Shown piece by piece: positions 3,001-15,518 of a stretch of 64,000 nucleotides of DNA. Source of the DNA: Octopus vulgaris (lineage: Eukaryota); NCBI GenBank assembly GCA_951406725.2, contig OX597825.1, positions 37,696,001 to 37,760,000 of the forward strand, given 5' to 3'. A program made the position numbers and the translations under genes. Every line of letters starts with the position of its first letter. Position 1 is the stretch's first letter. The notes beneath the pieces are model-generated. The model was given only the letters and a program-made list of their open reading frames with translations, had not been told where the DNA came from and searched no databases.

Positions 3001-3789
3001 TGCAAACTGACTATAAACAACAAGTAGTATAAGCTAAAATAAAACAGTGTATTAAAGAAGAAATCATACTCTCGTAAACGACAATGCCTCATACAGCTCA
3101 GATACACGAGCATGCATTTGAATATTCATAAATCCTTTTCCGGAGAAGAGAAGGCTTGCTGCAAGACCTAATTTTTCTGTAAAGAACAATTTCTGATTAT
3201 AAAGCCATAACCGAAATTTATGGCTGGATATAAAAACTGTGAATATTGCATGGATGAATTGAGTGCTATAATCCGTTAGACAGTCCCTACCGGTAATCGT
3301 GGAAAATTTAACCACGTGTAAAATATTATTAATCGGAAGGAAATGCATTAAACATGCATGACTAACTGGTAAACAATTACACAAACGCAAAATAAAGTAT
3401 CTATTGTAACTGTACAGAAATATTTCAATAAAACAAAGGATTCTACCATATATAAAACAAACGCTGAATTAGCAAAAAGTTATGAAAAAAAAAGGAGAGC
3501 AACAAAAGAAGTTAGTGAAGAAGCAGAAAAAGACACAAAAGAAAAACACTAAGGTGAAACTAGGAACCTCAGAATGCCATCCCAACACAACAAGAAAATT
3601 TCTAACATGATATATGTCTGTAAACAAAAAGACACTATGAACGCTTCATGACAATCATGTTAATATCATAATATTTTTCATACCGGCCAACTTATAAAGT
3701 GACAAACTTGTATTGGTCACAAACAGGCGTTTTCAGTATTTGTTTCTTTAGTATGTACTGCAAGGGATTCATTTAGTGTATACAGAGGT

Positions 3790-6241: not shown

Positions 6242-6247
<6 letters not shown>

Positions 6248-6441
6248 TATAGAAGGAGCTTCTACAGGACTAGAACTGTTTCATTCAAATGAAATCTTCA
6301 GGAAGCTCAGATCTCCCTGAAGATTTCATTTCAATGAAACAGTTCTAGTCCTGTAAACTCCTTCTATAAAATAAATTAATTTACTCTGCTATGTATTGAG
6401 TACCTTATTAACTGTGGTTAACCCCGACTCAACCCGGGACC

Positions 6442-6445
<4 letters not shown>
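6242..6445. mobile_element. Short PLE-terminus remnant with fold-back, inserted in (TA)n
   Basis: Inverted arms about 6247-6302 and 6316-6369, a unique tail to about 6445, (TA)n on both sides, and an HHR core in the arms. Confidence 0.7.
6256..6308 (-). ncRNA. Type I hammerhead ribozyme motif
   Basis: Minus strand reads GAGCTTC-CTGAAGA-TTTCATTTGAAT-GAAA-CAGTTCTAGTCCTG-TA-GAAGCTC: 7-bp stem I, intact core, stem III ACAG/CTGT, GUA cleavage triplet. Confidence 0.75.
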
Positions 6446-10576: not shown

Positions 10577-10997
10577 GGCGCAGGAGTGGCTGTGTGGTAA
10601 GTAGCTTGCTAACCAACCACATGGTTCCGGGTTCAGTCCCACTGCGTGGCATCTTGGGCAAGTGTCTTCTGCTATAGCCCGGGCCGACCAATGCTTTGTG
10701 GGTGGATTTGGTAGACGGAAACTGAAAGAAGCCTGTCGTATATATGTATGTATATATATAAGTGTGTGTGTATATGTTTGTGTGTCTGTGTTTGTCCCCC
10801 TAGCATTGCTTGACAACCGATGCTGGTGTATTTACGTCCCCGTCACTTAGCGGTTCGGCAAAAGAGACCGATAGAATATGTACTGGGCTTACAAAGAATA
10901 AGTCCTGGGGTCGATTTGCTCGACTAAAACGCGGTGCTCCAGCATGGCCGCAGTCAAATGACTGAAACAAGTAAAAGAGTAAAAGAGTAAAAGAGTA
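10577..10997 (+). mobile_element. tRNA-derived SINE family A (CORE-like, octopus OR-type), full length
   Basis: A box tggctgtgtgg, B box ggttcagtccc, CORE-like cttgggcaagt, internal (TA/TG)n, and a (GTAAAAGA)n tail. Second copy at 15337-15721. Confidence 0.85.
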
Positions 10998-11242
10998 TAC
11001 ATACATATACATATATATATATATATAGATATATATGTGCATATATATATAGATATATATATGTGCATATATATATAGATATATATATATGCATATATAT
11101 ATATATATATTAATAAAAAGAATTCCAACCTTGTCTGATTTTCACGTTTTATTTACAATCTTATAATGATATATTATAAGATAATATATTATAATTGAAT
11201 AAAATAAAATGAAATAGTAGAATGTTAAATATTCATTCTGAT

Positions 11243-11287
11243 TGAACTAGTACTTTCATGCATTGAATTCTGCAATCTTCGGGTTCA
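11243..11287 (-). ncRNA. Minimal type I hammerhead motif in the PLE 3' region (U4C core variant)
   Basis: TGAAC-CCGAAGA-TTGCAGAATTCAATGCAT-GAAA-GTAC-TA-GTTCA: stem I TGAAC/GTTCA, stem II TGCA/TGCA, palindromic stem III AGTACT. Confidence 0.75.
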
Positions 11288-11781
11288 TGTAGTAGTGTTG
11301 ACAGTCATGCTTCACAATTTTTGACTGTAGCAAGATGAGTGATTCTGTGCTATAAATACAGCTGGGTAGGCTCCAGAGTGCTAGGTTTTGCAAACTGTAT
11401 TCTGACCAATCAGTGTGTAGTATCACTCAATTACTTAAGCTGATTGGTTGGTTGAGCTGATTGGTTTAGGCATCACGCTTTGTTGGACAGGTCAAGAGTC
11501 CTGTATCTTGACCCTGGCCGAAGCAGCAATTGTTGGCTTATTTTTAGAAATGTTGTAAATATCCTTTGTCAGAGATTTTTATATTTTTATATTTCAATTG
11601 TCATCATCATCATTGTCAGCACCTTAATTATTGTTGCTAGTGGTGATGGTGGTGGCAATAGAACTTTTAACCCTAAATAAGATAATTTTCCTGCTATCTT
11701 CGTCTTGATCACCTTTAGTATTGTTGTTGTTGTTAGTGGTCATGGTCGTAGCAGTGGAAGTAATACCTCTAAGTATTATTA

Positions 11782-13600
11782 TTATTGCTTATTTAGCTTG
11801 GGTTCGAATTTATCAATAAAATTCTTTTCTCTGATTTTCCTCTCGATTTCACTTGGGCTGTGTAATTTGTAGAATGGAAATATTATATATATTTTCCGAC
11901 CACATGTTGCTAGGTGGTTACTCAAAGGTATCTGACGGACCTCTGGGTCTCTAATCTGTTGCCGGTGTACACGTGAGCGTTCTAATAGTGCGTTTCCCGT
12001 CTGACCTACATATATTTCTTCACAATTTGGGCATTTGATGCAGTAAATTAAATTTCTGCTTTTGCAGTTCATATTCGCGTTTGTGAATATTTTCCCGGTT
12101 TTTGTGTTTATATATTGACCGGTATGTATGAATTGGCATGTGCCACATCGGCTATCATTGCATTTAGATACCGTGAATGTTTGGTCTTTGTTGCTGAGGT
12201 CAAATTTTGCCTTTGTTAGTAATGTTTTCAAGTTTTTAGGCTGTCTTTTACTAAGTACCATAGCTCGATCCTTGATTATGTCTTTTAATTCATTACTTTG
12301 GGCAATGATTGGTAGGTTTGCTTTGGCAATGTTGAAGATATTCTGGTGACATGGGTTGTGTGTCACTATGAATGGTATGACTTGTTCTTGTTTTCCTCTT
12401 CCTTGGGTTGTCCTAAGTTGTTGTATAGGTATTTTTATAGCCCGCTGTATGCCATTTTCTATAAGTAGAGATGGGTATTTTTGTTTGAGCAAAAATTCTC
12501 TTAGTTCTATTAGGCGTTTGTTCCTGATATTTGCATCTTCTACAATAGTACAAATTCTTCTGGCTAGGCAGTATGGGATGTTACGTTTTGTATGTGGTGG
12601 ATGGCACGACTTAAAATTTAGGTATTGATGTGTGTCTGTGTGTTTATAGTATATATCTGTGGTGATGGTGGTGTCTTTTTTAATTACCATTATATCCAGG
12701 AATGGTAATTTGGTACTACTCATCTCCTTTGTAAATTTGAGAGATGGGTGTAGGTTGTTCAGGAGGATATTGAACTCTTCCAGAGTATTTAGAGATTCTG
12801 TCCAGATTATGAAACAGTCGTCTAGGTATCTCTTCCATGCCTTTTCAATATACTTTCTAAATCCAGTGCCATAGTTTACCTCCACCTCTTGGTAGAGTTG
12901 TTCTTCTAAGTATCCCATTACAGAGTTGGCGTAAACGGGAGCAAACCTCGTTTCCATCGCCGTGCCTCTAATTTGGATGTAATTCTTTCCATTGAAGAAG
13001 AATGTGTTATTTTCTAGAATAAGTTTGACTGTGTCTAATATAAATGGCACTGTGAATCTGCTGGGAATCACTTCTCTATGTTTTTCTAACCAGTATTTAA
13101 TCGCCTTTATTCCTAAATCGTGTGGAATATTGGTGTAGAGGCTTACCACATCAAAACTTAGTAAAACTGAATTTGTTTCTGTTGTTTTGGGAAGATGGGA
13201 CAGGAAGTCGATGTCATCCCTGATGAAACTTGGTATGTAAGTACATAGTGGTTTCAAAACAATGTCAATAAAATTGCTTAGACGGTGTGTAGGGCATGCT
13301 GGACCAGCTATAATAGGTCTAAGTTTTAGGTCTTTTGGATGTAATAATTTTATGTACTCACTTTCTTGTTCTTTTACTGCCTGTTGAATGTTTTTTGATT
13401 TGTGTATTTTTGGTAAGCCGTAGAAGTTGCTGGGTTTTGGTTCAAAATTGGTGATGTAGTCTTTTTCATTATCCGTAAGTGAGTTGCGGTGTGTTGAAAT
13501 CAGGTTGTTGATCTTTTTTCATGATGTGGTGGTCTATATTTGCGGGTATTTCACAATAGAAGGTTGTATCCTTCAGTTGGTCTTCAACCAAATCCTTCAA
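11782..13600 (-). pseudogene. PLE reverse transcriptase-GIY-YIG endonuclease ORF (5'-truncated, one frameshift)
   Basis: The 491-aa ORF extends in frame upstream to about 13515 (FYGLPKIHK...LRPIIAG); a +1 A in an A run near 13514-13519 shifts to LKDLVEDQLKDTTFY up to 13600. Motifs: SFDVVSLYTNIP, GTAMET (canonical GTAMG), RYLDD, FLD, YYKHTDTHQYL, Cys linker CNDSRCGTC, LIYCIKCPNC-IYVGQT, R..H, NH. Confidence 0.93.
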
Positions 13601-13626
13601 GAAAGAAGCAACAAGAATGGATAGGT

Positions 13627-13717
13627 TTTTAGTACAATCGTTTCATACAAGGACAGGCTTTATTAAAAGTTGCAAAAATTACAGCATATAAACGTGTCCT
13701 GTACTCATCAGCTAAAA
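13627..13717 (-). ncRNA. Type I hammerhead ribozyme (inverted copy)
   Basis: Exact reverse complement of 14046-14136. Confidence 0.85.
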
Positions 13718-13859
13718 TACATGTGAGTTCTCTAGACATCCTATTGGTTGAGGCTATACTCATGAAGTAGATAATTAAGTAACATAAACAGATTTCCAAA
13801 GTTCATTAAAGTTCTTTAAAGATGATGTACAGTCTTATCACAGAATTTAAAAAAAATTC

Positions 13860-14279
13860 ATATGTGCACTATGGATTAGGTCACCTTCTCTGTGATGCTG
13901 TTAAAACTTTTTTAAAATTCTGTGATAAGACTGTACATCATCTTTAAAGAACTTTAATGAACTTTGGAAATCTGTTTATGTTACTTAATTATCTACTTCA
14001 TGAGTATAGCCTCAACCAATAGGATGTCTAGAGAACTCACATGTATTTTAGCTGATGAGTACAGGACACGTTTATATGCTGTAATTTTTGCAACTTTTAA
14101 TAAAGCCTGTCCTTGTATGAAACGATTGTACTAAAAACCTATCCATTCTTGTTGCTTCTTTCTCGCTTATAATCACCCCACATTATTGTATTGTTAAAAC
14201 AGTATAGTTTTTTTGGTGCATCTAAGTTAGGTATATTCAAGTAAATTCATTTAAATTAACTTGAATCTTTATTGCTTTT

Positions 14280-14281
<2 letters not shown>
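13860..14281 (+). mobile_element. 3' terminal segment of a second PLE family or non-autonomous HHR element
   Basis: Contains an HHR, continues past the IR to a T-rich end at (TA)n, and shows no visible similarity to the Neptune 3' region (11112-11780). Confidence 0.65.
14046..14136 (+). ncRNA. Type I hammerhead ribozyme with extended stem II
   Basis: TTTTAG-CTGATGA-GTACAGGACA...TGTCCTTGTAT-GAAA-CGATTG-TA-CTAAAA: 6-bp stem I, canonical core, about 10-bp stem II with a large loop, near-palindromic stem III ACGATTGT, GUA site. Confidence 0.88.
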
Positions 14282-14341
<60 letters not shown>

Positions 14342-15336: not shown

Positions 15337-15518
15337 TTTCAGTCATTTGACTGTGGCCATGCTGGAGCACCGCCTTTAGTCAAGTAAATCGACCCCGCGA
15401 CTTTTCTTTGTTAGCCTAGTACTTATACTACCGTTTTCTTTTGCTGAACCGCTAAATTACGGGGACGGAAACATACACGCATTCCTTGTCAAGCGATGTT
15501 GAGAGGGAAACACAGGTT

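What the first reader, a model, noticed from the sequence alone, without database searches (positions are those of the whole stretch)
11112..14281. Chimeric two-headed Penelope insertion carrying three hammerhead ribozymes from two unrelated termini
Seen: one block bounded by (TA)n at both ends. The left part is a 5'-truncated Neptune-type RT/GIY-YIG element (minus strand) with a 3' HHR (11243-11287). Its ORF breaks at 13600 and runs straight into an inverted copy of a different HHR-containing terminus, whose direct copy (plus strand) ends at the right-hand (TA)n. Established: PLEs normally carry direct or inverted pseudo-LTR copies of their OWN 3' end, and these contain minimal HHRs (Cervera and de la Pena 2014). 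Here the 5' 'pLTR' shares no visible sequence with the 3' end, and its HHR has a different architecture. Inference: both ends of a break in a TA array were primed on different ribozyme-processed RNAs, or the RT switched templates onto a non-autonomous retrozyme-like passenger. That would imply cross-family mobilisation of HHR-capped RNAs.
Basis: partly seen in the sequence, partly recalled or inferred. Interest (0 to 1): 0.8.

Follow-up and report, generated by a model that had tools for sequence, protein, structure and literature searches.

The report
Two abutting Penelope-element insertions
This block is a cut-down copy of one Penelope-like jumping gene sitting flush against a small mirror-image stump of a second, unrelated ribozyme-bearing repeat; it most likely records two ordinary insertions at the same TA repeat, with a smaller chance that one event stitched the two RNAs together.

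Summary
The anatomy is real. Family A (11112-13597, minus) is a young, 5'-truncated Neptune/Nematis-type RT/GIY-YIG element with hammerhead HHR1. It abuts block B (13598-14281): a 261-bp inverted arm plus a direct copy with a 116-nt one-sided tail, each carrying an unrelated hammerhead, HHR2. Public contigs show A normally continues into its own ORF past 13597 (3 of 4 runs), so B is not its usual upstream sequence; B is a separate multi-copy repeat whose helix-III variants restore perfect palindromes. But B alone already has the textbook two-ended PLE insertion structure, a third family forms the same ORF-less stump alone between (TA)n 5 kb away, and A breaks exactly at a T|ATA step (2-5.5% of ORF positions). 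Best reading (0.65): A attached to a TA array first, B later inserted at that edge. A one-event cross-family template jump (0.2) is not excluded. No listed contig bridges the junction, no genome was available, and B's autonomous partner is unknown, so cross-family mobilisation is not shown.

The parts
11011..11110 (.). Left (TA)n target, imperfect
11112..11781 (-). Family A 3' UTR / pLTR end; 3' end 136 nt past the HHR1 cleavage site; many family copies leave the sequence near 11121
   Evidence: table 7 (24 contigs with loose ends at 11121 in X4)
11243..11287 (-). HHR1: type I, 5-bp helix I, 4-bp helix II closed by U-U, palindromic 6-nt helix III, core with U4C change; predicted cut between 11248 and 11247
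   Evidence: variant at 11281 restores the canonical core in other copies (table 3)
11782..13597 (-). Family A ORF, 5'-truncated at 13597: RT, CX4CX2C linker, GIY-YIG with CCHH; one extra base near 13514 relative to family contigs shifts the frame
   Evidence: table 4
13597..13600 (.). A/B junction: blunt, no microhomology; either 2 untemplated bases or the B arm extended by 2 nt with a CpG-type change; in family A the next plus-strand bases are ATA
   Evidence: table 7
13598..13858 (-). Family B short (tail-less) arm with HHR2 copy at 13717->13627; 3' end 33-35 nt past the predicted cut
13854..14281 (+). Family B long arm, 5'-truncated at 13854 (joined to the short arm inside an A run), with 116-nt tail 14166-14281
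   Evidence: table 7 (B continues before 13854 in 4 of 4 runs)
14046..14136 (+). HHR2: canonical core, 6-bp helix I, long helix II with about 40-nt loop, wobble-palindromic 8-nt helix III; predicted cut after 14130
   Evidence: variants at 14124 and 14127 each give a perfect palindrome
14282..14329 (.). Right (TA)24 target

Best explanation
Two successive, ordinary Penelope-like insertions at one TA array. Step 1 (inferred): a family A RNP nicked a (TA)n array, copied its RNA from the 3' end near 11112, and the 5'-truncated cDNA was attached to the array at a T|ATA step in the ORF, most simply by microhomology with the target. Step 2 (inferred): a PLE-type RT/endonuclease carrying family B RNA cut at that A/(TA)n edge (or at the same TTATA inside a longer A copy, with loss of the rest), primed both broken ends on one B template or on identical ones, starting at two internal sites 111-116 nt apart, and the two short cDNAs were joined at an A run. 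Shown: the three 3' ends, the two-family origin, the shared rare alleles in both B arms, the T|ATA break. Not shown: the order, and which protein moved B.
For: B alone has the published two-ended form: inverted 5'-truncated arm plus tail on one end only (PMC8557442 Fig. 2 legend; PMC3846280). An unrelated third family forms the same ORF-less inverted stump with a one-sided tail by itself between (TA)20 and (TA)21 at 6242-6445. One X17 contig shows a B copy passing from 14170 straight into a TA/TG microsatellite, 5 nt from this arm's end, so the short end is a natural target-facing end (table 7). Family A continues with ATA right after 13597 in X9, X1 and X17; a TATA/ATAT straddling a random cut occurs at 37 of 1811 ORF positions, and ATA/TAT just outside at 100 of 1811. 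Secondary insertion of one PLE family into another is on record (Pen2a into Pen3, PMC3846280). A and B depths do not keep a fixed ratio across runs (about equal in X1, B higher in X17; table 2; a weak measure).
Against: No TA unit is left between A and B, so B must have hit the exact edge of the array (roughly 1 in 5 to 1 in 25 by my estimate) or deleted target. Both parts are young: A differs from the X1 contig by 5 letters and 1 gap in 2486 nt, the B arms by 0-1 change over about 250 nt away from the centre, so ages do not separate the events. The T|ATA argument rests on one junction. No A-only allele was seen; only 23 of 572 loose-end rows were displayed.
Confidence: 0.65

Rival explanations
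1. One event, two RNAs: the left target end was primed on A RNA, the free 3' end of the stalled A cDNA then primed B RNA at its short start site (template jump), while the right target end was primed on B RNA at its long start site. This would be cross-family or helper-parasite co-integration.
For: Blunt A/B junction with no target remnant; B short arm lies in the same orientation as A, where A's own pLTR would normally sit; similar young age; PLE RT starts at internal RNA sites not homologous to the primer and is predicted to be a dimer (PMC11167929); pLTRs have carried unrelated passengers (PMC3846280).
Against: Does not predict the T|ATA break (2-5.5% by chance); needs three priming events on two families in one reaction; B-type stumps insert alone (block C); PMC3846280 reports no cross-mobilisation between families in Adineta (said of EN+ versus EN- types).
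Confidence: 0.2
2. B belongs to family A's own unit but lies outside the assembled contig (far 3' extension or far 5' leader), so the block is an ordinary pLTR structure with an internal truncation.
For: In X1 summed depth of B (37.6) equals that of A (37.7) (tables 2, 3). The letters of the 1659-nt upstream part were not displayed beyond 30 nt.
Against: X1 record 1 (4196 nt) holds A from 1659 nt upstream of 13597 to 52 nt past 11112 with only one piece listed; relative L003 has 1699 nt upstream of the homologous position, coding-like and without a convincing hammerhead, which accounts for that length; B splits into subfamilies about 7% apart in X1 while A is one contig; depth ratio differs in X17; HHR1's U-U-closed short helix II recurs behind relatives L002 and L007, HHR2's form does not.
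Confidence: 0.07
3. The A/B junction or the inversion is an assembly artefact between repeats.
For: No listed contig bridges 13597/13600 (32 of 6156 pieces shown, table 8); a near-perfect 260-bp hairpin is hard to assemble.
Against: Both arms share alleles that are rare in the family (14063: window letter in about 3% of X4 depth and none in X9, X1, X17; 14019: none in X4, X9, X17; table 3), not consensus letters; the short arm stops within 5 nt of a natural B end; the centre joins at an A-run microhomology.
Confidence: 0.05

Closest known systems
Canonical EN+ Penelope-like insertions with inverted 5'-truncated pLTR and one-sided tail (PMC8557442; PMC3846280)
   Same: RT then GIY-YIG, linker Zn finger, 3' hammerhead, (TA)n target, 5' truncation, inverted arm with a tail at one end; solo pLTRs are described.
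   Different: The inverted pair upstream of the ORF is from another family; the tail is 111-116 nt, not 30-40 nt.
Pen2a_Av secondary insertion into Pen3 in Adineta vaga (PMC3846280)
   Same: One PLE family found inserted in another.
   Different: Here the second element is an ORF-less stump at the 5' boundary, and no remainder of A lies on its far side.
Pen3a_Av pLTR capture of unrelated sequence (PMC3846280)
   Same: Inverted plus direct pLTR upstream of foreign sequence.
   Different: There the passenger is closed by a third pLTR of the same family and a TSD; here the far end is A's own terminus.
Animal non-LTR retrozymes (PMC7229834; bioRxiv 10.64898/2026.07.22.740005)
   Same: Type I hammerhead with palindromic helix III in a non-coding multi-copy repeat; proposed PLE-derived and PLE-mobilised.
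   Different: No head-to-tail array here; B's unit is longer than 630 nt if it repeats at all; long helix II as in PLE hammerheads.

Membership tests
EN+ PLE (family A) | RT followed by C-terminal GIY-YIG endonuclease | tested here: met
   Pfam GIY-YIG at residues 490-576; homologues at up to 65% identity carry PF00078 and PF01541; my own Pfam scan did not report the RT family
EN+ PLE (family A) | CCHH motif in the endonuclease | tested here: met
   C496, C499, H518, H535 invariant in 32 of 32 rows
EN+ PLE (family A) | Hammerhead in the 3' terminal repeat | tested here: met
   HHR1 motif; cleavage not tested
Neptune clade (family A) | CX2-5CxxC linker between RT and EN | tested here: met
   C453, C458, C461 invariant; shared with Nematis per PMC8557442
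Neptune clade (family A) | RT phylogeny inside Neptune rather than Nematis | not testable with these tools
   No clade-labelled reference proteins were returned; 'Neptune' is therefore Neptune-or-Nematis
Naiad / Penelope-Poseidon / Hydra (family A) | N-terminal EN (Naiad); no linker Zn finger (Penelope/Poseidon); no CCHH (Hydra) | tested here: not met
   against the definitions in PMC8557442
PLE pLTR (family B) | Hammerhead, 5' truncation, inverted arm, one-sided tail, microsatellite target | tested here: met
PLE pLTR (family B) | Lies downstream of an RT/EN ORF in full-length copies | not testable with these tools
   No genome held; no tblastn hit of 120 stored PLE proteins outside A in the window; no match in viral contigs
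Non-LTR retrozyme (family B) | Head-to-tail tandem units of about 150-450 bp (up to about 970) each with a hammerhead | tested here: inconclusive
   No internal repeat in 428 nt and a further 202 nt upstream lie on nothing here, so the usual size range is not met; a longer unit is not excluded
Non-LTR retrozyme (family B) | Expressed as small circular RNA | not testable with these tools
   Only contigs of runs not on record as RNA were available

The most novel reading that the evidence does not exclude
A single integration reaction used two unrelated hammerhead-bearing RNAs: the stalled cDNA of Neptune-type family A primed reverse transcription of family B, and B is a non-autonomous repeat moved by A's protein. 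This would be a junction-level record of PLE cross-family template jumping and would name the helper of a hammerhead parasite.
Probability: 0.15. Interest if true: 0.6.

Novelty: new member of a known kind. Interest (0 to 1): 0.27.

Why it matters
If sequential, it is an ordinary pile-up of PLE families in TA microsatellites, useful only as a hint that array edges are re-cut. If a single event, it would be direct genomic evidence for what is so far argued from co-occurrence and pLTR similarity: that PLE proteins can copy foreign hammerhead RNAs, the proposed route for animal retrozymes. One locus cannot decide this; a genome-wide count of A-B junctions can.

Tried and rejected
Rfam gathering scan: 0 hits. 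BLASTN of A and B against the rest of the window: no further copy. Relatives with flanks: 1 locus from metagenome contigs, ORF only; 6 from genome contigs, of which L002 and L007 show a clear 3' hammerhead and L003 a weaker candidate, and only L003 has a long upstream region; 0 from viral contigs. HHR2 pattern in viral contigs: 0. B, block C and A's 3' end match none of the 7 loci at DNA level beyond one 14-nt hit. B's six frames show no PLE-like ORF. Expression: no RNA holder listed, so nothing is concluded. The DNA alignment of five hammerheads misaligned block C and was not used. Earlier scan notes: nothing for this genome or these sequences; one word search returned 35 notes from other genomes, 8 shown. 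The Terminon paper was not held and is not used. Literature searches for a cross-family PLE chimera found no such report; this covers only the open library. No structure prediction was run, as the protein family was not in doubt.

Full report
Observation. The block is as described, with one coordinate change. Between an imperfect TA array ending at 11110 and a (TA)24 starting at 14282 lie a minus-strand RT/GIY-YIG frame (13518->11782, 578 aa), its 670-nt 3' region with hammerhead HHR1 (11287->11243), and a 259-nt inverted repeat (13600-13858 / 13905-14163, 2 mismatches, both near the centre) whose arms each hold hammerhead HHR2. The A 3' region and B are unrelated (best local score 24, matched by 122 of 200 resamplings). 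A strict descriptor, set after I had seen the motifs, gave 4 hits in the window against 1 in 30 resampled windows. Rfam found nothing and monomer folds are no better than shuffles, which is expected for PLE hammerheads thought to act as dimers (PMC4209133, parts 1-2 of 4 read). Cleavage is untested.

Family A. The protein has the CX4CX2C linker and CCHH motif, invariant in 32 of 32 aligned rows, so it is Neptune or Nematis by the definitions in PMC8557442 (introduction and passages); I could not separate the two. Its best relatives are 55-65% identical and, where named, mostly from bivalves. No genome was available, so I laid contigs of 4 of the 24 listed runs on 11112-14281 at 88% likeness. 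A is multi-copy. In X9, X1 and X17, contigs leave the window at 13597 with the same continuation, which I translated by hand as AIVIMD(T/V)(E/G)YY, the motif that follows DKGG in the alignment consensus. X1 record 1 is 4196 nt long, covers 11112-13597 with 5 other letters and 1 gap, and has 1659 nt further upstream with no second piece listed; X17 record 10 has 870 nt. The tables were cut (32 of 6156 pieces, 15 of 41 joints, 23 of 572 loose ends shown), so absence of a second piece is not proven. Relative L003 has 1699 nt upstream of the homologous position, filled by coding-like frames, which accounts for A's upstream length without B. The extra base near 13514 is absent from the family contigs (table 4), so this copy is broken.

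Family B. It is also multi-copy, with subfamilies: contigs continue before 13854 in 4 of 4 runs (202 nt in X1), an alternative upstream sequence joins at 13908 in X9, X1 and X17, one X1 contig runs 282 nt past 14281, and one X17 contig passes from 14170 into a microsatellite. Two independent variants in HHR2's helix III (14124, 14127) each turn the window's wobble palindrome into a perfect one, which is what selection on a dimeric hammerhead predicts. Both arms share letters that are rare in the family (14063, 14019), so they were copied from one template or one from the other. No tandem unit shows within 630 nt, which is outside the usual 150-450 bp of retrozymes (PMC7229834, passages) but inside the range up to 972 bp in bioRxiv 10.64898/2026.07.22.740005 (parts 1-3 of 5 read; its supplements were not seen). 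B's ORF, if any, was not found.

How the block arose. It has three 3' ends: A at 11112 (136 nt past its predicted cut), B short at 13598-13600 (33-35 nt past), B long at 14281 (151 nt past). None coincides with a cleavage site, in line with internal initiation at two sites and dispensable hammerhead cleavage in PMC11167929 (parts 1-2 of 4 read). A standard inverted PLE insertion has two outward-facing 3' ends with a tail on one, and B is exactly that by itself. Block C at 6242-6445 shows such a stump from a third family alone between two TA arrays (arms 89% alike). So the question is only whether B's left primer, the 5' boundary of A, was a nascent cDNA end or an old junction cut again. A breaks at T|ATA, a context found at 37 to 100 of 1811 ORF positions depending on the definition; that fits microhomology attachment to (TA)n or a later cut at a TA-like site, and a random template jump does not predict it. 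Against this, no TA unit survives at the junction, and the two parts are equally young. My weighing (inference): with 48 TA clusters in the window and hammerhead blocks at two sites, second hits on an array are not rare; the edge requirement costs a factor of 5-25, the T|ATA context gives a factor of roughly 5-10, and the frequency of cross-family jumps is unknown. I put sequential insertion at 0.65, one event at 0.2, B as part of A's unit at 0.07, artefact at 0.05.

Comparison with what is known. Inverted pLTRs, one-sided tails, solo pLTRs, (TA)n targeting, a secondary insertion of one PLE family into another and pLTR capture of unrelated sequence are all described (PMC8557442; PMC3846280, sections 9 and 11 and passages). 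My searches found no report of an EN+ PLE body headed by another family's inverted pLTR pair, but they cover only the open library, and consensus sequences in supplements, which I did not open, may already include A or B. The host looks like an octopod from a SINE at 10578-10990; that label is recalled, not tested.

Verdict. Real structure, two genuinely different hammerhead families, most likely ordinary sequential insertion. Interest 0.27; the one-event helper-parasite reading has probability about 0.15 and would merit about 0.6.

Noticed in passing
window 6242-6445: Third hammerhead family: ORF-less inverted pair (6242-6374, arms 89% alike) with a roughly 70-nt one-sided tail between (TA)20 and (TA)21; the minus-strand hammerhead (6308->6256) has a 7-bp helix I and a 4-bp helix III, the plus-strand copy lacks part of helix I.
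   Followed up: partly
window 11281: The non-canonical U4C core of HHR1 is the majority form by summed depth in X4 (about 63%), X9 (about 67%) and X1 (all), while X17 contigs carry the canonical core; the family may have amplified with an altered ribozyme core. Depth is a poor measure of copy number.
   Followed up: partly
window 11287-11243, 6308-6256; L002:1846-1888; L007 near 2705: Four hammerheads, three of them behind Neptune/Nematis-type ORFs, share a short helix II closed by a U-U mismatch; L003's candidate near 3660 does not.
   Followed up: partly
window 13855 / 13908: The short B arm ends at the very point where family B splits into two upstream variants in public contigs, a T/A run that may be a recombination or template-switch hotspot.
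   Followed up: no
L003:3-1268: A relative carries coding-like frames upstream of and overlapping the RT frame (3-683, 684-1268, RT frame from 1199), suggesting an ORF1-like or frameshifted N-terminal part in this lineage.
   Followed up: no
window 11628-11783: Internal 52-nt duplication (75% alike) with GTT/GGT-rich repeats in family A's 3' UTR.
   Followed up: no
L002-L007: Animal-type PLE contigs are binned inside bacterial genome records, probably host contamination.
   Followed up: no
window 10578-10990: A tRNA-type SINE-like repeat lies 120 nt left of the block; a partial inverted copy lies at 15404-15498. Family name recalled, not tested.
   Followed up: no
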